Shown: positions 7,961 to 16,679 of the stretch, in pieces | Position numbering within the stretch: position 1 is the first letter of the stretch | Layout: the number at the start of each line of letters is the position of its first letter | DNA from: a virus | Taxonomy: Duplodnaviria > Heunggongvirae > Uroviricota > Caudoviricetes | IMG/VR virus record: IMGVR_UViG_2579778802_000007 | Span: 1-31,026 of that record | Strand: one strand, 5' to 3' | DNA: 31,026 bases | Translations under genes and position numbers: made by a program | Notes under the pieces: generated by a model | What the model saw: the letters and a program-made list of their open reading frames with translations, nothing else | Databases searched by the model: none | Told to the model about the DNA's origin: nothing

Positions 7961-10900
7961 TCAGCTGATACTGATGCCTGCGGTGGCTTTCTTCATCACC
8001 ACAACCAGCAAATCGCTGATACTTGCTGTGGGATACCAGTTATTCACCAGCCATGCTGATACCGAAAACTCCAGCGTCATGTGACCGTGACCGGCAGGCA
8101 TATCAATAACGCCACTGTAAATCAGCGTATTATCCAGCGCGGTACGGTTATAAATTTCAGCACCGTTTTTCCGCACTATCAGACGGCATGAGGAGTAAAT
8201 ATCAGTATGCTCTCTCTCATGCTTAGCGCCACTGAATGCCACCGCCGGAATAACAATTTGCCGGTCAAACGGCTGATCGTCATAAACCCTGACGGTAATG
8301 GTCCCTGATGGCCACCGCTCCGGTGCACGGGAGTCCCGGGGGAAAGCTTTGCCCACTGTTTTAACGAGATCGCCTTCAATCTGGTTCGCGGACAGTTTTC
8401 CCAGAACCCGACAGTTCTCGTTAATCGTGACGTTGTTGAGCGTCCCGGAATTCGCATTCACGTTACCGCTGATATCAGCATTTCTTGCGGTCAGCCTGCC
8501 CTCCGGCGTCAGGGAAAACGTCGGGGGATTGCCGGACGAGGTGATACTCACCGCAAACAGCCGCTTCAGGAACACATCGTTCATGAACAACTGATTCCCC
8601 TGCGCCACAAATAACGGCGTGGTGTTGCCGTCCTCCGGGTTAATCATCGCAATACGGTCAGCCAGCAGCAGTATGTTGCTCAGGGGCTGGCCATCAGTAT
8701 CCTCAATCCCCGCTCCAATACCGGCAACATAGGGTATGCCATTTTTTGTTTTCTGTACCTTCAGCATGTAAAGTGCAGCAAGGTCATCATTTGTGTCCTT
8801 CTGCACGCGCTGTATCTGCTGTATGGTGGCGCTCTGGTCCTCCAGCGTTTTACTGACCGTCTGTGTGATTTCATTGCGGGTTTCTGTGATGGTGGTCTGC
8901 ATTTCCGCCATCTCGTCCTTCAGCTGACTGTTGTCAATCTCTGCCCACAGCGCCTCTGCCAGATGCAGTTTTCCTATCTTTTCCCGGAAAAGTTCCAGAT
9001 AGCCCGCAGCGTCATTGCTCGCCCGTCCACTGGCTTCCACAAAAGCAGATTTACCCACCAGGTTGACGCTGCGCACATAAAACCAGAAATCCTTTCCGGG
9101 CTTAATGTGCGGACCGGAGACACTCCACTGACTGCCGGTCCCCAGATAACGGGCAGAGGTTTCCACCTGTGCGGCGTCTGCAATTTTTGCCTCCGAAAAC
9201 CAGAACTCAAACTGCACCGTCGGGTCATAAATGGTCAGTTTCGGGACTGCCGTTATCTGAAAATACCCCGGCGTCAGTTCAACACCGGCAGGCGCTGCCG
9301 GTGCGTTAATCCGGAACGTGGTGGTGGCGGGTTCGCCCTGCTGGCCATAGCTGTTAATCGCCCTGACCGTCAGGGTGTATTCCCCGAGAGGCAGGCCACT
9401 GAAACGGTGCTCCGTATCGGCAGTGATGGCAGTGGTCAGCAGGCGGCTGTTCTCACCGCTTCCACTGGTCAGGCGCAGACTGAAGCGCACGCCCTTCACC
9501 ACCCGCGGCGTGTCCCATTTCGCCAGCGCCAGATACTGGCCGTCAGCCGCGCTCACCTCCACCGTGAGGTGCTGCACTGCCGGAGGAATGACGCTGTTCA
9601 GGGTGCCTGACTGCGGCTCAAAGCGGGCTCCGTTATCCACAATGGCTTCTTTTTCCGGTACGTGCTGCACCGCCGTGATGGCAAAGGTGCCGTCCGTGTT
9701 TTCCCGGATGGAGACACAGCGGAACAGGCGACGGCTCAGTGACGGCAGGGAGAGTCCCCACACCCCGTATGTCTCCACACCATCAGGCAGGGTACTGACC
9801 TGTATCCGGTCCGGCGCGGGGTGTGCGGTGATGTCCACACTCACCGGCTTACCGCTGCCGTTAATCAGGTTCACCGCCGATGTACCTGTCTCCGGCAGGG
9901 TAACCTCACGGTCCAGCGTCAGGGTGCGGGTGGCAGCATCAATGGACAGGACACGTCCGCCGGTCAGGGTCCCGGCATAGTCATTATCACAGATTTCAAT
10001 AATGTCACCGGGTGTGTGCCGCAGCCCCTGAGACCCGAGTGTGAAATCAACCGTCTGCGTTTCCAGCAGTTCGGTCTTTATCACCCACAGCCCGGCACGG
10101 TGGGCCTGACCGCGGCTGGTACAGCCGAACGCGTCCATCTTCAGCAGGTTGCGTCCGTAGCGCAGTATGGCTTCCGGGTCTTCCACCAGTTCCGTGGAGG
10201 TCTGCCAGCCGTTCTGCGGGTCGGTGTAATTCACCTCCACCGCCGTGTGCCGGTCCTTCAGGGCACTGAAGCTGTAGCGGAACCCCACGCCGTTATCATC
10301 CACCACCACATCGCTGTTGGTGTACGGCCACACCACATCCGACGGGCGGTCCTGAACGAACGTCAGCGTCTGGCCGTTCCATACCGGCATACAGCGCATC
10401 GCCGAGCAGAAATCACTGAGAACGTCCCACGCCTTACGCTGTTGTGCCAGGTACGCATTAAAGGTCATCCGCGGCTCTGTGCCCCCGAAACCATCCGGGA
10501 CCGTCTGGTCGCAGTACTGCCCGATGGCATACAGCGCCCACTTGTCCACATCCGCCGCCCCCAGGCGTTTTCCCATCCCGTAGCGCGGGTGAGTCAGCAT
10601 GTCCCACAGACACCAGGCCGGGTTGTTGCTGTATGCCGGTTTCAGACTGCCGTCCCAGATACCGCTGTACGTGCGTTTTTCCGGGTCATAGTTTGACGGC
10701 ACCTGGATGATGCGACCGCGGATATGGTAGTTCACCGTCATCTGCTGGCCGCCGAACTGCTCCGCATCCACCTGCAGCCCCACAATGGCCGTGTTCGGGT
10801 AGCACTGTTTCACATCGATGATTTCGGTGTATGACGACCAGAGCGTCTTATTCAGCAGCTGGTCCGTGGTGCTGTCCGCCGTCTCCCTGACCATCCGGAT

Positions 10901-11434
10901 GTTAAAGGGCCGGGGCGGCAGATTATCCAGAATCACCGACGCCAGGAACTGCGAGGTGGTCTTGCCGTTAATGGTGACATCCTTTTCCGTCATCCATTTA
11001 CCACCACGCTCAAGCTGAATCAGCAGGCGGACAGACGTCGGGTTACGGTCACCCTTTGAGGTGGTCTCCACCAGTGACTGCACCCCGAAGGTCACCCGCA
11101 GGCGGTCAATGTTCGCGGACGTAATGGTGCGCGTCACCGGCTTTGCCTTCGTCACTTCCACGCCTGGTCCGGTTTCAGCTCCGGAGGACTCAAAGCCTTC
11201 CGGTGGTGTCTGCTCCTGCTCCCCGGCGCGCCAGACCGCCGTCACACCGTGTATCACGGGATTACCGTCCGTGTCCGTCAGCGGGGTTTTGTTCACCAGG
11301 ATACTCTGCAGTCCCTTCACCGGACCTTCTATCGGTCCCTCACCAATCGCATCAATCACGCTCATCATCTGCGTGGATTTGAGATTATCCTTCGCCTCAC
11401 GAGGTGTGTGCGCCTTGCCGCCACCTTTACCCAT
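7961..11434 (-). CDS. J: Tail tip / host specificity protein J
   Basis: Collinear similarity to lambda gpJ from '[22 protein letters not shown]' through the C-terminal receptor-binding region. Confidence 0.97.
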
Positions 11435-11569: not shown

Positions 11570-12097
11570 ATGAACCGTAAAAGTCTTGCTGCTATTGCAA
11601 TGGTGCTGGCAACATCATGTGGATATGCCGCCACAATAAAAGTCCCCATGAACCTTGTTAATGCCGATGGTAAAGAGGTGAGCGCCGGAACAATAACTAT
11701 CCAGGAGACCAGCTATGGTCTCCTGTTCACACCAGATCTGCACTCTTTACCTCAGGGCATTCATGGATTTCATGTGCACGAAAAGGGAAGTTGCGCGCCG
11801 GCTCTGAAAGATGGAGTATCTGTTGCGGCATTAGCAGCTGGCGGTCACTTTGACCCGAAACAGACTGGAAAACATCTTGGTCCCTGGTCTCCTGATGGTC
11901 ACCTGGGCGATCTCCCGGCTCTGTACGTGACTCATGACGGAAAAGCAAACTATCCGGTTCTCGCACCAAAACTGAAAGAATTAACAGAAATAAGCGGACG
12001 GTCTCTTATGATCCACATTGGCGGTGACAACTATCATGACCATCCAGATCCACTCGGCGGCGGCGGTGCAAGAATGGGCTGTGGTATCATCCCATAA
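11570..12097 (+). CDS. sodC: Periplasmic Cu,Zn superoxide dismutase with N-terminal signal peptide (accessory gene)
   Basis: Motifs '[10 protein letters not shown]', 'GGHFDP', 'GHLGDLP', '[12 protein letters not shown]' match bacterial SodC; hydrophobic N-terminus; RBS GAGGG. Confidence 0.92.
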
Positions 12098-12104
12098 CAA
12101 GTCT

Positions 12105-12136
12105 GGTAAGGGGAGCTGCCCCCTTACCTTTTCTCC
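12105..12136 (+). terminator. Rho-independent terminator of sodC (GGTAAGGGG-AGCTGC-CCCTTACC + TTTTCTCC)
   Basis: Perfect 9-bp stem followed by a T-run on the plus strand only. Confidence 0.7.
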
Positions 12137-12199
12137 ACCAGTCAATGAATCCGCTCTCGCCAGAAGAACAAACAGAAAAACTCTGAATATCTTCACATT

Positions 12200-12330
12200 T
12201 TCACAAAATCCCTGTGGCACTTATAATTTCTCTGCGTTAATTTTTTTGTCGTGACATAAGAATAATTCCTTACACTTAATCTTCGTAACTCTCCCGCAGT
12301 TCCTGTCCGCGATCACTGCGGGATTTTTTT
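12200..12330 (+). ncRNA. Candidate small RNA: promoter (TTCACA - 16 bp - TATAAT) followed ~95 nt later by hairpin CCCGCAGT...ACTGCGGG + T7
   Basis: Promoter-like hexamers at 12200-12205 / 12222-12227 and a plus-strand terminator at 12293-12330, with no ORF between them. Confidence 0.25.
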
Positions 12331-12337
12331 ATTCTTT

Positions 12338-13018
12338 TTACCCCTGCCGCCCGATAACCACGACCTTTCCGCCCCCGCCTTCATCACGGGTACTGATGTC
12401 CTGGGAGATTCGCCGGGAGCCAACCAGCATTTCCCCGTAAGGCACCGGCATCGGGTTCCCCTGGGCAATCATGTTATCCAGCGAGGAAAAGTACGTGTTC
12501 TGTCTGCCGTTATCCGTTACGCGGTAATCCGGTGTTTTTGCCTTCGGGGCCAGCATCTGTGCCATACCGCCCAGTATCATGCTGGCCCCCAGTGAAAACA
12601 GCATCGTGGTGGCAGAAAAACCACCGGCTGCCAGGGCTGAACCCCATAACGCCATCGAGGCACCGGCCGTGAAGAAAGAGCCCACGATGGCTGCCGCCCC
12701 CAGCACAATCTGCAGTCCGCCCTTTCCGGCTCCGGCCAGTCGCGGCACAATGTGGATGACCGTTCCCTCACCCAGCTGTTCGTGAAGACGGGCGTACACC
12801 GCCTCCGGTGCCGTGTCATCACCGGCAATACGTATCTGGTACCAGCCTTCGTTCATCTGACGGCGAAAGCCCGGCATCTGCATCGACAGGGCGCGAATGG
12901 CTTCCGCTGCCGTGTTCACATACAGGCTGAGGCGGCGGCCAAATCGTTGTAAATCCCCGTGAAGGCAGATGCGTGCCAGTGGCGGTGACGCCAGACAGAA
13001 TGCGTTCGTCGTTGCCAT
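12338..13018 (-). CDS. I: Tail assembly protein I
   Basis: Similarity to lambda gpI ('ARICLHGDLQRFGRR...QIVLGAAAIVGSFFTAG...KTPDYRVTDNGRQNTYFSSLDNM'). Confidence 0.93.
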   Translation of the reverse strand: MATTNAFCLASPPLARICLHGDLQRFGRRLSLYVNTAAEAIRALSMQMPGFRRQMNEGWYQIRIAGDDTAPEAVYARLHEQLGEGTVIHIVPRLAGAGKGGLQIVLGAAAIVGSFFTAGASMALWGSALAAGGFSATTMLFSLGASMILGGMAQMLAPKAKTPDYRVTDNGRQNTYFSSLDNMIAQGNPMPVPYGEMLVGSRRISQDISTRDEGGGGKVVVIGRQG

Positions 13019-13653
13019 TTTTCGGAATACCTCTCCCGTTTACTCAGTTGTTCAGGCAGATGGTGAAGCAGCTCACCGTTGCCACAGTAAATGGCGGCAT
13101 GGTTCGGTACCGAAGCACCAAAGCAGCACAGCAGAATATCGCCCGCCTGTGCAGAGGACAGGGGCACCCGGTAAAAGCCCGTTCCCTCCATATTGTCCAG
13201 GTACAGGTTCTGGCCATTGCGCCACCAGTCATCCTCGCGATGAAAATCCGGCATTTCAGTCCCCGCCAGATGGTAAGCATCCCGGAACAGGGTGTAACAG
13301 TCCGTCACCCCGTGTTCAAAGCGCCGTCCCGTCAGGTGTGGCACACAGCGGAATTTGTGAATGTCACCCCGGCAGACCAGCCACCAGGGCAGTGCGCTTT
13401 TTATCTGCAGCCGCCGGTCAGCCTCGCTCAGCCAGGGCAGCCCACCGGGATGACTGTGGACCAGTGCCACAATCTCCCCCGACATCTCTGCCCGCAGCCA
13501 GTCTTCCGGTGCGATACGAAAATACGCCTCCGGCTCTGCGGAAATATTCACACAAGGGATATACCGCTCCCCCTCCGGCGTTCTCACCACGAAGCCGCAC
13601 GACTCCGCAGGCGCACACCGCCGGGCATGTGCCAATATATTGCTATAGAGCAT
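12916..13653 (-). CDS. K: Tail assembly protein K (NlpC/P60-like, JAB/MPN-like)
   Basis: Similarity to lambda gpK ('VHSHPGG.PWLSEADRRLQ...HLTGRRFEHGVTDC.TLFRDAYHLAG'). Start set to ATG 13653, which has AGGAG upstream. Confidence 0.93.
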   Translation of the reverse strand: MLYSNILAHARRCAPAESCGFVVRTPEGERYIPCVNISAEPEAYFRIAPEDWLRAEMSGEIVALVHSHPGGLPWLSEADRRLQIKSALPWWLVCRGDIHKFRCVPHLTGRRFEHGVTDCYTLFRDAYHLAGTEMPDFHREDDWWRNGQNLYLDNMEGTGFYRVPLSSAQAGDILLCCFGASVPNHAAIYCGNGELLHHLPEQLSKRERYSEKWQRRTHSVWRHRHWHASAFTGIYNDLAAASACM

Positions 13654-13707
13654 GAGAACTCCTGATAAAAAACCCAGCCGAGGCTGGGTCATTTCGTTGG
13701 TAATCTG

Positions 13708-14610
13708 TTAGTAGTGATGCAGTGAAGGCGGCAACTCTTTGCTCTTAAGCCTTACCCATGCGGAAAGATTCGTTGGTCCATCTGGCTCATTAATATCAAC
13801 ATCTCGTGTGTGATTGATTAAAACGTCTCTCGCCATTCCAATAACATACGAGAACTCATGGCCGTAGTTGTAGCACCTGTCAGAATAGTTCGATTGAATT
13901 TGCTTTAGCGCCGGATACAGTTCGCGGAATAATGCCTGTGAGCGGTTGGCATAATCCCATAGCCATACAAGGCTGTTTGCTTCTTTTGCGGAAAGCTCGT
14001 TGGTTTTCTTCTCTTGTTTGCCAATGAACTCACCTTCAAGCACTACCCTGTGGATGTACTCTACGGCTTGCGGTATCTGAGATGCATCAAGCTCTTCAAT
14101 ACTTTCCACATTGAAACGCTGATGAATCATTGCATAAGCTTCTGGGTACATTAGATGCTTTTTGCTGACCAGCATATTTACAGCATCACGAAGCGGAGTC
14201 CTGTCATCAACAGATGTTTTCTTACGTGCATTTTCTGCCTTTCCCTTTGTCCAGTAGTCATGCAGCACAGTAAAGCATTCTTCCTGGTACTGAATCAGTT
14301 TATCGCGGATGTCAGCACGAACTTTCTCGGGGTTGATGCTGAACAGCCATCCATTTAACTTCTTCAAAGGAAGGCAGAGTAGCTTACGAAGCTTTCCATC
14401 AGCAGCAACCATATTCATATGAATACAGTTGAACTTATCTAGTTGTTTCATAAGTTTTTGTTGCTGAGTACCCCAGCTCATTCCGAGGTTTTCAACGATT
14501 GGCTTCATCGCAACATATGCAACTCCGGCAGCCATGGCGGTGATAATTTGCTGACCGTTGAATGGTACGTAAGAGGTGTTCACTGCTTCTAAAATTGCTA
14601 TACTATTCAT
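13708..14610 (-). CDS. Antirepressor-like protein (P22 Ant N-terminal-type domain)
   Basis: N-terminus '[22 protein letters not shown]...[21 protein letters not shown]' resembles antirepressor N-terminal domains. Sits downstream of the arc-like gene, as ant does in P22 immI. Start at ATG 14610 (GGAG upstream). Confidence 0.55.
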
Positions 14611-14672
14611 GTTGGTTTTTCTCCACGGATTTACTGACAACCGAAGCCCTGACTGTTCCCGCAGTTGGGGCT

Positions 14673-14876
14673 TCAACTTTCTGCTCTATCAGTTATATCT
14701 TTCCCTTCATATACTTCACCTATATTGCTAATGCTGGCAGAACATCCAAGATGCTTGTATCTTATGATGTCCAACACGCAGTCACTACACAGCATCCGAC
14801 CTGTTTCTTTAGAGTAAATGTATGTTTGATCAGCGTCTGATTCGCTAATGCCGCAGAAACAACATTCTTTACTCAT
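14673..14876 (-). CDS. Small Cys-rich protein (67 aa; CxxC...CxxC, zinc-ribbon-like), hypothetical
   Basis: ATG overlaps the arc-like stop (ATGA); purine-rich SD upstream; 'CCFCG...CSDCV' motif. Confidence 0.4.
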
Positions 14877-15980: not shown

Positions 15981-16679
15981 TTACTGCGAAAGTTTATTAA
16001 TGGAAAGGAAACCGCCAAAATTGCCGACATTCCTGCGCAGTTCACACCCGCGCATGCACTTGCTGCATCTGTCCTTACGGATATCCGTGGTGGGTTTATC
16101 GAACTCATCCGCCACAGCCCCGCCCGTGTAACCACACTCATCAGAGCGGTAGGTCCACATACAGGTGTTCGCCAGCATGATACGACCGGGAAACAGCGCC
16201 CCGTCCGTCTCGGTCGGTGTGGCCAGCACAAACGAGGCCGTCATGGCTGTCAGCTCCGACATCTGCTCCACCACCCAGCGGTCACTCAGCTCCTGCTCCG
16301 GGTCCGCCTCCGGATTGCCCGCAACGAAATTCACCGCATCCAGAAAACGGGCATACACCCGGCGGCGGACCACCGTGGCCCCCACCAGGCTCTGCAAATC
16401 CTCCGCCATTCCGGTGACAAGACCAAACAGATTGGACACCGTCAGCGACGGTCTGGCACTGCTGCCCTTCCCGCTCATCTCAAAACCGCTGCCGTCAATC
16501 GGGTATGCCTCATACTTACGCCCCTGCCAGGTGACCGGCTCCCCTTTTTCATTCAGCTCATTACAGAAAAAATACCGCTCACCGCCCTGTACCGTCAGGT
16601 CGATTTCCCAGAGTACCACCCGCGGTGACTGCTCTGATTTAACCGACTCGTTCAGACTTTCTTCGTGAATATCCTGCAT
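15981..16679 (-). CDS. L: Minor tail protein L
   Basis: Near-collinear identity with lambda gpL ('MQDIHEESLNE...WEIDLT..GGERYFFCNE.NEKGEPVTWQGR.Y'). Confidence 0.95.
   Translation of the reverse strand: MQDIHEESLNESVKSEQSPRVVLWEIDLTVQGGERYFFCNELNEKGEPVTWQGRKYEAYPIDGSGFEMSGKGSSARPSLTVSNLFGLVTGMAEDLQSLVGATVVRRRVYARFLDAVNFVAGNPEADPEQELSDRWVVEQMSELTAMTASFVLATPTETDGALFPGRIMLANTCMWTYRSDECGYTGGAVADEFDKPTTDIRKDRCSKCMRGCELRRNVGNFGGFLSINKLSQ

What the first reader, a model, noticed from the sequence alone, without database searches (positions are those of the whole stretch)
12200..12330. Candidate prophage small RNA between sodC and I
A near-consensus sigma70 promoter (TTCACA - 16 bp - TATAAT) is followed about 95 nt later by a strong plus-strand intrinsic terminator (8-bp stem CCCGCAGT/ACTGCGGG + T7), with no ORF between. 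sodC already has its own terminator upstream, so this second terminator has no obvious coding gene to serve. Prophage accessory junctions are known hiding places for regulatory sRNAs.
Basis: inference. Interest (0 to 1): 0.45.

Follow-up and report, generated by a model that had tools for sequence, protein, structure and literature searches.

The report
PasB-family prophage small RNA gene
The promoter-terminator pair is real and is a divergent, uncatalogued copy of PasB/EcOnc22, a known Hfq-dependent small RNA family found between tail genes I and J of lambda-like E. coli prophages, so the candidate is confirmed but is not a new kind of element.

Summary
Window 12200-12227 holds TTCACA-16-TATAAT. 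A 9-bp hairpin (12292-12300/12315-12323) plus T7 (12324-12330) follows on the + strand. There is no ORF between them, and sodC has its own terminator at 12105-12128.

The unit (12174-12330) does not depend on sodC. It occurs in 1835 of 5426 complete E. coli genomes, always in the gap between tail genes I and J and antisense to them. Only 6 genomes have this sodC junction.

It is homologous to PasB of EPEC E2348/69, an 83-nt RNA confirmed by Northern blot, Hfq-dependent, with 37 RIL-seq partners. The PasB Northern probe matches 20 nt of the window terminator. It is also homologous to EcOnc22/23/24 of EHEC Sakai (~85 nt, bound by Hfq in CRAC, destabilised without Hfq).

The window allele is only 72% identical to PasB and shares no word of 28 nt or more with it. 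The published PasB census used a 28-nt word size, so it probably missed this allele. Yet this allele is the commonest form, at 90% identity or more in about 855 genome records.

New here:
- The family is modular, with a conserved promoter and terminator around a variable body.
- Units form tandem arrays of up to four.
- All units keep CRP-like half-sites upstream, and most keep an ARN run.

Targets are unknown. Verdict: a new member of a known kind, of modest interest.

The parts
12174..12199 (+). Conserved upstream promoter block: an A-tract (12175-12179), then TCTGA (12182-12186), N6, TCACA (12193-12197). These are CRP-like half-sites.
   Evidence: Homology to sodC-free loci begins at 12173/12174. 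All 88 unique family units keep T[CG]TGA-N6-TCACA, with 7 different N6 spacers, and in 76 of 88 it lies 24 nt upstream of the -10. Regulator binding is inferred, not shown.
12200..12227 (+). Sigma-70 promoter: -35 TTCACA (12200-12205), 16-bp spacer, -10 TATAAT (12222-12227).
   Evidence: 11 of 12 match. The -10 is TATAAT, AATAAT or CATAAT in 72 of 88 units. The -35 position is TTCACA in only 39 of 88.
12232..12239 (+). Conserved start box CTGCGTTA. The predicted transcription start is G12234, 7 nt after the -10.
   Evidence: Conserved in 14 of 17 BLAST-derived loci, which were not selected for this box. The start site is inferred. No 5' end mapping is available for this allele.
12241..12247 (+). 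U7 run near the 5' end. Its last T is homologous to the 5' end reported for E2348/69 PasB. An RNA starting there would be 84 nt (12247-12330).
   Evidence: Alignment A1 combined with PMC8550237 table S6 coordinates. Whether the 83-nt species is a primary or a processed transcript is unresolved.
12258..12266 (+). Three consecutive A-R-N triplets (AAG AAU AAU), a candidate contact for the Hfq distal face.
   Evidence: 80% of 88 unique units keep 3 or more consecutive ARN triplets here despite divergent sequence, against 4.6% of shuffled bodies. The ARN motif is as defined in PMC4104026.
12266..12284 (+). Unstructured conserved core UUCCUUAC (12266-12273) ... UUAAUCUUC (12276-12284), the candidate seed region. 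UCCUUA is identical to the 3' end of the 16S anti-Shine-Dalgarno sequence.
   Evidence: Conserved columns in alignments. RNAalifold predicts no conserved pairing here. Zhu et al. place the PasB seed just upstream of the terminator. The seed role is inferred.
12292..12330 (+). Intrinsic terminator and Hfq 3' module: stem 12292-12300 / 12315-12323, a 14-nt loop, and U7 at 12324-12330.
   Evidence: The CCCGCAG/CTGCGGG stem is invariant in 25 of 25 representative sequences. A second terminator type in array units changes the fifth pair from C-G to U-A or U-G. The reverse complement of the PasB Northern probe, AATCCCGCAGTGATCGCGGAGCT, matches 12306-12325.
12105..12128 (+). sodC's own terminator. 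It is not part of the sRNA unit and marks the end of the sodC insertion.
11570..12097 (+). sodC insertion (Cu/Zn superoxide dismutase), placed between the J start and the sRNA unit.
   Evidence: Pfam Sod_Cu, E = 8e-32. Only 6 of 5426 genomes share this junction.
12338..13018 (-). Tail assembly gene I. RefSeq homologues start at the position equivalent to 12919. The sRNA terminator ends 7 nt before the I stop codon.
   Evidence: Pfam Lambda_tail_I; RefSeq annotation of identical loci.
7961..11434 (-). Tail tip gene J, downstream of I in the late operon. The sRNA unit is antisense to the I-J intercistronic mRNA.
   Evidence: Pfam GpJ domains.

Best explanation
Window 12174-12330 (+) is one self-contained gene of the PasB / EcOnc22 family of Hfq-dependent small RNAs. 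These genes sit in the I-J intergenic gap of lambda-like E. coli prophages and are transcribed convergently to the tail operon.

- Transcription. A near-consensus sigma-70 promoter (inferred to fire in the lysogen) starts transcription at about 12234. A one-way intrinsic terminator ends it at 12330, giving a non-coding RNA of about 97 nt. A form of about 84 nt is possible if the 5' end matches the one reported for PasB.
- RNA anatomy. The 5' two-thirds carries no structure conserved across the family. It carries an ARN run and a conserved UUCCUUAC...UUAAUCUUC core. The 3' end is a hairpin plus U7.
- Proposed mechanism (inferred from the homologues). Hfq binds the U-tail and the ARN run. The single-stranded core then pairs with mRNAs in trans, probably at or near Shine-Dalgarno sequences, and changes their translation or stability.
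- sodC is an unrelated cassette with its own terminator, inserted between J and the sRNA gene.

Shown here: the anatomy, the homology, the fixed position, and the wide conservation. Shown by others for homologues: expression, size, Hfq dependence, and many mRNA partners. Inferred: expression of this allele, its 5' end, its seed, and its targets.
For: Homology
- Alignment with the E2348/69 PasB locus (A1) covers promoter, start box, core and terminator.
- The mature region is 72% identical to PasB, and the PasB probe site is shared.
- PasB coordinates, probe, size and Hfq data come from PMC8550237.

Position
- In every locus examined except one truncated prophage (L013, where I and K are missing), the unit lies between tail assembly gene I and gpJ on the opposite strand.

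EHEC homologues
- EcOnc22/23/24 lie in the I-J gaps of Sp15, Sp14 and Sp11, on the sRNA strand.
- The published coordinates are offset by about +140 nt from NC_002695.2. I calibrated this with AgvB1 and HnrS.
- After that correction, the CRAC peaks fall inside the family gene.

Conservation
- 1835 of 5426 E. coli genomes and 57 phage records carry the unit.
- At least 120 IMG/VR contigs matched the pattern; 139 family units and 51 distinct transcript sequences were recovered across all loci held.

Independence from sodC
- 1278 genomes hold 12173-12340, but only 6 also hold the sodC side.

Non-coding
- No + strand ORF is present.
- One-nucleotide T-run length differences between near-identical alleles would shift the frame of the 31-aa - strand ORF at 12221-12316.

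Structure
- Only the terminator is conserved as a structure.
- The full RNA folds with z = -2.1.
Against: - No expression data exist for this allele or this strain.
- Both Northern sizes (83 and about 85 nt) are 8-15 nt shorter than the promoter-predicted RNAs (98 nt for PasB, 93 nt for the Sakai type), so either the start site or processing is not understood.
- No common target motif was reported for PasB, and no target has been validated for PasB or EcOnc22.
- The terminator stem is invariant in most members, so covariation support rests on a single pair.
- The body differs from PasB by 28%, so its targets cannot be carried over from PasB.
Confidence: 0.85

Rival explanations
1. The main role is in cis. 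The RNA, or convergent transcription from its promoter, acts as an antisense regulator of the late tail-operon mRNA at the I-J junction. This would limit or uncouple J expression, for example by silencing leaky late transcripts in the lysogen.
For: - In every intact locus examined, the unit sits in the I-J gap on the strand opposite to I and J.
- It is fully complementary to the intercistronic mRNA and ends 7 nt from the I stop codon.
- Arrays of up to four units fill a 900-nt I-J gap.
- The position is more conserved than the RNA body.
Against: - PasB engages 37 partners from the core and accessory genomes on Hfq in trans.
- In 18 of 142 loci the I-J gap carries 2-4 units; if each only had to oppose I-J transcription, their different bodies would need no conserved core or ARN run.
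- The position can equally be explained as a tolerated insertion site for extra genes.
- This reading does not exclude a trans role.
Confidence: 0.15
2. There is no functional RNA. The hairpin is only a back-up terminator or insulator that stops transcription from sodC, or from other insertions near J, from running antisense into I, K and L. On this reading the promoter match is incidental.
For: - The terminator lies downstream of sodC on the same strand.
- In L013 and two Stx2a phages, a PasB body without a -10 lies directly after sodC.
Against: - Promoter, body and terminator are conserved together in 1835 genomes, most of which lack sodC.
- sodC has its own terminator.
- Homologues give discrete Hfq-dependent RNAs.
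Confidence: 0.04
3. This copy is a decaying or silent relic of a PasB-type gene, recognisable by homology but no longer expressed or functional.
For: - Some family members clearly have damaged promoters, such as L013, UC4316 (GACAGT) and array units with CAGAGT or AAACCT at the -10.
Against: - The window copy has the best promoter in the family (TTCACA-16-TATAAT), an intact 9-bp stem and a U7 tail.
- It is 100% identical in FDAARGOS_1283, and about 855 genome records match it at 90% or more.
Confidence: 0.07
4. The interval encodes a very small protein on one strand or the other.
For: - A 31-aa GTG ORF lies on the - strand at 12221-12316.
- Two phage records annotate 'hypothetical protein' over the homologous stretch.
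Against: - There is no + strand ORF.
- The - strand ORF would be frameshifted by the 1-nt T-run variation and by the 5-nt and other loop and body indels seen among alleles.
- RefSeq annotates nothing there.
Confidence: 0.02

Closest known systems
PasB (pathogenicity-associated sRNA B) of EPEC O127:H6 E2348/69, prophage PP6. Sources: Pearl Mizrahi et al. 2021, PMC8550237; Zhu, Shabalina & Storz 2026, bioRxiv 10.64898/2026.05.13.724894.
   Same: - Same I-J gap and same strand relative to the tail genes.
- Same promoter block, CTGCGTTA start box, U-run, CUCCUU/UUCCUU core and AUCUUC motif.
- Same CCCGCAG/CTGCGGG terminator with U7.
- The probe target is shared.

   Different: - 72% identity over the mature RNA, with the longest shared word only 25 nt.
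- The census of Zhu et al. searched Escherichia and Shigella genomes with a word size of 28 and query coverage above 75%, and describes PasB variants as differing by 'a few nucleotides'. It therefore probably did not count this allele.
- The ARN run, the flanks of the core and the terminator loop all differ, so the target set may differ.
- sodC lies beside the window copy, not beside the E2348/69 copy.
EcOnc22 / EcOnc23 / EcOnc24 of EHEC O157:H7 Sakai, prophages Sp15 (Stx1), Sp14 and Sp11. Source: Tree et al. 2014, PMC4104026.
   Same: - Same gap, strand, promoter block, core and terminator.
- Detected by Hfq-CRAC and Northern blot (about 85 nt) and destabilised in the hfq deletion.
   Different: - About 74% identical to the window RNA.
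- The -35 and -10 are weaker (TCCGGC / AATAAT).
- The link between EcOnc22-24 and PasB is my own mapping, made through a coordinate offset of about +140 nt. I found no paper that states it, and PMC8550237 lists no EHEC homologue for PasB.
Anti-sRNAs AgvB / AsxR (Rfam RF02702, RF02703)
   Same: - Prophage-borne and Hfq-dependent.
- A modular family with a conserved 3' part and variable 5' parts, present in several copies per genome.
   Different: - They lie at the insertion site downstream of the late promoter PR', not in the tail region.
- They are 51-60 nt long.
- There is no sequence similarity, and their Rfam models do not hit the window.
HnrS (EcOnc10-12) of EHEC. Source: Poudyal et al. 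2026, PMC13502914.
   Same: - A multicopy sRNA in the prophage late region, Hfq-associated.
- An A-rich ARN-like run is followed by AAUCUUC. [quoted passage not shown]
   Different: - 66 nt long, with a different terminator.
- It lies in the gap between a small hypothetical ORF (next to the DNase gene) and the endopeptidase (Rz) gene.
- It is 99% restricted to EHEC and EPEC, whereas the PasB family is common in extraintestinal strains.
- The similarity is one short motif only and is not evidence of homology.

Membership tests
PasB / EcOnc22 sRNA family | Sequence homology to the E2348/69 PasB gene, including promoter and terminator | tested here: met
   A1 alignment. 72% identity over the 83-nt RNA and about 75% over the full unit. 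nhmmer score of 137.5 bits against a family profile.
PasB / EcOnc22 sRNA family | Location in the gap between tail genes I and J of a lambda-like prophage, transcribed opposite to them | tested here: met
   Pfam assignments for I, J and K. The same arrangement is seen in E2348/69, Sakai Sp11/14/15 and 14 other loci.
PasB / EcOnc22 sRNA family | Own sigma-70 promoter and an intrinsic terminator with a U-tract of at least 4 (PMC8550237 lists a U-tract of 7 for PasB) | tested here: met
   U7 lies at 12324-12330.
PasB / EcOnc22 sRNA family | Expressed as a discrete RNA of about 83-85 nt whose stability depends on Hfq | not testable with these tools
   Shown only for the E2348/69 and Sakai alleles.
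Hfq-binding sRNA, class II-like (binding through a 3' U-tail plus an ARN motif) | Terminator hairpin followed by poly-U, plus an (ARN)n run of 3 or more in a single-stranded region | tested here: met
   U7 tail. AAG-AAU-AAU lies at 12258-12266, in a region with no family-conserved pairing and unpaired in the centroid fold, though partly paired in the minimum-energy fold. ARN runs are enriched across the family (80% against 4.6%). Actual use of the Hfq faces was not tested.
AgvB / AsxR anti-sRNA family | Match to Rfam RF02702 or RF02703, and location downstream of PR' | tested here: not met
   No hit at gathering threshold or at E of 10 or less. The location is the tail region.
MicX (Rfam RF01808) | Score at or above the gathering threshold of 75 bits | tested here: not met
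   19.9 bits, E = 0.034. Only the terminator and a UUCCUUAC stretch align.
CRP-dependent class II promoter | TGTGA-N6-TCACA site centred at -41.5 relative to the start site | tested here: inconclusive
   TCTGA-N6-TCACA at 12182-12197 matches 14 of the 16 flanking consensus positions, by my own comparison with the textbook consensus. The half-sites are invariant in 88 of 88 units while the N6 spacer varies. However, the centre lies at -44.5 from the predicted start, off the canonical phase, and no binding data exist.

The most novel reading that the evidence does not exclude
The window RNA may be the type example of a major PasB-family allele that has never been studied. It is the commonest form in E. 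coli, especially in extraintestinal lineages, and its altered seed flanks may give it its own set of targets.

The family as a whole may be a diversifying cassette system:
- a fixed promoter, possibly under cAMP-CRP control through the invariant TCTGA-N6-TCACA;
- a fixed terminator and Hfq-binding module;
- a swappable single-stranded body;
- stacking into arrays of up to four units in the I-J gap.

The units may also damp J expression in cis.
Probability: 0.25. Interest if true: 0.55.

Novelty: new member of a known kind. Interest (0 to 1): 0.3.

Why it matters
- **An unannotated gene in a third of E. coli genomes.** About a third of complete E. coli genomes carry a member of this family. Rfam 15 and RefSeq annotate none of them, and the published census used a search that probably misses this allele, the Sakai type and the array units, so it likely captured only part of the family.
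- **Two literature names joined.** PasB (EPEC) and EcOnc22-24 (EHEC) appear to be the same family, which pools the experimental evidence.
- **A tractable system.** Because the promoter and terminator are fixed and the body varies, the family could show how phages evolve new Hfq-dependent regulators.
- **Testable hypotheses.** The conserved CRP-like half-sites and the ARN run suggest how the RNA is controlled and how it binds Hfq.
- **Limits.** For this window, the practical result is an annotation. The function remains unknown.

Tried and rejected
- **Rfam 15.** I searched the whole window at gathering thresholds and 12000-12450 at E of 10 or less. Nothing was found for the interval except a sub-threshold MicX match, which I rejected.
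- **AgvB/AsxR.** This was my first guess from memory. I rejected it on location, size and the absence of an Rfam hit.
- **HnrS.** I considered it because it is multicopy in late regions. I recovered its sequence from Sakai; it has a different locus and terminator and shares only AAUCUUC.
- **Small ORFs.** Rejected (and the indels).
- **Covariation.** RNAalifold on 25 representative sequences found no conserved 5' structure and no covariation in the invariant stem. The one compensatory pair comes from the second terminator type.
- **GTDB species scan.** The two-gap pattern I used was too loose. 66 of 69 hits were chance matches. The real ones were E. albertii plus two tiny, probably contaminant contigs.
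- **PasB RIL-seq partner list.** I could not extract it from table S3 with the look-ups available.
- **EcOnc22 Northern probe sequence.** I could not find it, so I calibrated coordinates instead.
- **Literature search by sequence string.** No result.

Full report
**1. What is in the sequence**

The window is the late region of a lambda-like prophage, read on the minus strand. The order is terminase, then the head and tail genes, then L (15981-16679), K (12916-13692), I (12338-13018), J (7961-11434) and the side tail fibre genes.

Between I and J, on the plus strand, lie two features:
- sodC (11570-12097; Pfam Sod_Cu) with its own hairpin plus T-run at 12105-12128;
- the feature under study.

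The feature has these parts:
- TTCACA (12200-12205), a 16-bp spacer, and TATAAT (12222-12227);
- a stem at 12292-12300 / 12315-12323, followed by T7 at 12324-12330.

The hairpin has no T-run on the other strand, so it would not stop the tail operon. No plus-strand ORF lies between the -10 and the terminator.

**2. It is not tied to sodC**

Megablast of 12100-12340 against 5426 complete E. coli genomes found the right-hand 168 nt (12173-12340) in 1278 genomes. Only 6 of these also had the sodC side.

In sodC-free loci the same unit sits in a gap of about 240-340 nt between the tail assembly gene I and gpJ. A more sensitive blastn with 12195-12332 found the unit in 1835 genomes. Identity clustered at 90% or more (855 records), at 80-90% (189) and at 60-80% (799). 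The same search found 57 phage records, mostly Stx1a- and Stx2c-converting phages. RefSeq annotates nothing under any of these matches.

**3. Identity: PasB**

Pearl Mizrahi et al. (PMC8550237) found five prophage sRNAs in EPEC E2348/69 by RIL-seq. Their table S6 places PasB at NC_011601.1 1466343-1466261 (minus strand), 83 nt, in prophage PP6, with probe AATCCCGCAGTGATCGCGGAGCT.

That interval is the I-J gap of PP6. It aligns with the window across the promoter, start box, core and terminator. The reverse complement of the probe matches window 12306-12325.

The experimental record for PasB is as follows:
- A Northern blot confirmed its size.
- It falls by log2 6.8 (activating medium) and 2.4 (non-activating medium) in the hfq deletion.
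- It has a U-tract of 7 and 37 RIL-seq interactions, and it is almost always the second RNA in chimeras.
- It is more abundant in the non-activating condition.

Its function has not been worked out.

**4. Identity: EcOnc22-24**

Table S2 of Tree et al. 2014 lists three homologous Hfq-CRAC peaks: EcOnc22 (Sp15), EcOnc23 (Sp14) and EcOnc24 (Sp11). They gave a Northern band of about 85 nt and were destabilised in the hfq deletion. A later review still lists their targets as unknown.

All three peaks fall in the I-J gaps of those prophages, on the strand opposite to I and J. Each gap holds an identical family member, for example at NC_002695.2 2902834-2902926.

The published coordinates lie about 120 nt upstream of the gene. 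They refer to an older sequence version. I calibrated the offset with AgvB1 at 1.94 Mb (+139 to +143) and with HnrS at 1.95 and 2.23 Mb (+127 to +148). An offset of about +140 nt puts all three peaks inside the gene body.

I therefore treat PasB and EcOnc22-24 as one family. PMC8550237 did not note an EHEC homologue for PasB.

**5. The window copy is a distinct allele**

It is 72% identical to the 83-nt PasB. Their longest common word is 25 nt.

Zhu, Shabalina and Storz (2026) surveyed Escherichia and Shigella genomes with a word size of 28 and query coverage above 75%. They report that PasB variants differ by only a few nucleotides, that there are 1158 hits, and that the minimum distance between copies is 28 kb. 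By that design, the window allele, the Sakai allele and the array units described below would probably not be counted.

Their remark that IS009 is a typical Rfam neighbour of PasB fits the window, which has IS009 at 3575-3773.

**6. Anatomy of the family**

From IMG/VR, RefSeq genomes and phage records I collected 139 units with 51 distinct transcripts. A profile search then gave 178 units, of which 88 are unique.

Conserved features:
- an upstream block, AAAA-TCTGA-N6-TCACATTT;
- a -10 element lying 24 nt further downstream;
- the CTGCGTTA start box;
- a U-run;
- a core of AAYUCCWUA ... UUAAUCUUC;
- the terminator.

Variable features: the -35 position, the 20-30 nt after the U-run, the stretch before the terminator, and the terminator loop.

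RNAalifold finds only the terminator as a conserved structure, with no covariation because that stem never varies. A second terminator type in array units (CUCCCGU.../...ACGGGAG) changes the fifth pair from C-G to U-A or U-G.

80% of units keep three or more consecutive ARN triplets just 5' of the core, against 4.6% of shuffled bodies. The units are related to one another, so this figure is descriptive and is not a probability.

My search pattern fixed CTGCGTTA, AATCTT and CCCGCAG. Conservation of those three strings is independent evidence only in the BLAST-derived set.

**7. Arrays**

Of 142 loci with a unit, 124 have one unit, 8 have two, 2 have three and 8 have four. All units in an array are head to tail in the I-J gap.

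In L155 the four units each have their own promoter block and terminator but different bodies. The window has a single unit.

**8. How it most likely works**

By homology, the RNA is made in the lysogen from its own promoter and bound by Hfq. The U7 tail would contact the proximal face and the ARN run the distal face. The RNA would then pair through its single-stranded core with mRNAs in trans.

UCCUUA in the core is identical to the 3' end of the 16S anti-Shine-Dalgarno sequence. Occlusion of ribosome-binding sites is therefore the simplest mode of action, and this is an inference. Zhu et al. place the seed just upstream of the terminator, which corresponds to AAUCUUCGUAACUCU in the window.

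A cis-antisense effect on the I-J mRNA is possible and untested.

The invariant TCTGA-N6-TCACA resembles a CRP site, and PasB is more abundant in the non-activating than in the activating growth condition. I recall the activating medium as glucose-rich DMEM and the non-activating one as LB, which would fit catabolite control, but I did not check the media in the paper. The site is also centred at -44.5 rather than -41.5, so I rate this only as a lead.

**9. Open points**

- The promoter predicts 97 nt (window), 98 nt (PasB) and 93 nt (Sakai). The Northern blots give 83 and about 85 nt. The reported PasB 5' end lies just after the U-run. This could reflect processing or imprecise sizing.
- In L013 and two Stx2a phages, a different sodC junction lies directly in front of a PasB body whose -10 has been replaced. 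In those loci the RNA could be made only by read-through from sodC.

**10. Verdict**

This is a real, well-formed sRNA gene, correctly spotted. It belongs to a published family, and its function remains unknown.

It is new only as an uncatalogued major allele. The side observations also appear to be new: one family behind two published names, the modular cassettes and arrays, and the conserved half-sites and ARN run.

Noticed in passing
window 13708-14678: A P22-type antirepressor gene (Ant; Pfam P22_AR_N and P22_AR_C, 13708-14676, minus strand) has an Rfam sar RNA match (14611-14678, plus strand, 95.6 bits) over its start. This immI-like ant/sar module sits between tail genes L and K. Closely related prophages (L001) lack it at that position.
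   Followed up: partly
window 1277-1463: An Rfam isrK hit (1277-1351, plus strand, 72 bits) is followed directly by a C4 antisense RNA hit (1376-1463, plus strand, 76 bits). These are two more known phage regulatory RNAs at the far end of the tail fibre region.
   Followed up: no
window 3575-3773: An Rfam IS009 hit (225 bits, minus strand) lies inside ORF 3532-4116, at the position of the tail fibre assembly gene. Zhu et al. 2026 list IS009 as the commonest Rfam neighbour of PasB.
   Followed up: no
L155 10116-10942 (IMGVR_UViG_2537562188_000008); also L012 (E. coli UC4316), L111, L154, L157, L178, L206: Four PasB-family units lie head to tail in one I-J gap. Each has its own promoter block and terminator, and their bodies differ. 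Arrays of 2-4 units occur in 18 of 142 loci. The published PasB census reports a minimum distance between copies of 28 kb, so these arrays appear to be undescribed.
   Followed up: partly
window 12182-12197 and all family units: TCTGA-N6-TCACA is invariant in 88 of 88 unique units, while the N6 spacer takes 7 forms. In 76 of 88 units it lies 24 nt upstream of the -10. It resembles a CRP site but is centred at about -44.5.
   Followed up: partly
L013 616-800 (E. coli strain E2); phage hits H99 and H100 (Stx2_EH2201, Stx2_EH1846): There is a second, independent sodC junction. sodC and its terminator are followed by a PasB body whose -10 is replaced (GGCACATCCTCCCT instead of GGCACTTATAATTT). sodC has therefore landed next to this sRNA gene at least twice.
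   Followed up: partly
L211 (NC_002695.2 2234370-2234435): HnrS (EcOnc10) carries AAUAAUAAUCUUCU. Its published hha-pairing seed, CUUCU, overlaps the AAUCUUC motif that is conserved in the PasB family. This could be chance, convergence or a shared target site.
   Followed up: no
L207, L208, L209, L210, L211, L212 (E. coli O157:H7 Sakai): The sRNA coordinates in table S2 of Tree et al. 2014 are about 140 nt lower than in the current NC_002695.2 between 1.94 and 2.23 Mb, and apparently up to 2.9 Mb. Anyone mapping EcOnc names onto the current record needs this correction.
   Followed up: yes
L052 (Streptomyces flavalbus, 3.4-kb contig); L034 (Parendozoicomonas haliclonae, 460-bp contig): Perfect PasB-family units occur on tiny contigs in assemblies of unrelated bacteria. 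These are most likely E. coli or phage contamination of those assemblies.
   Followed up: no
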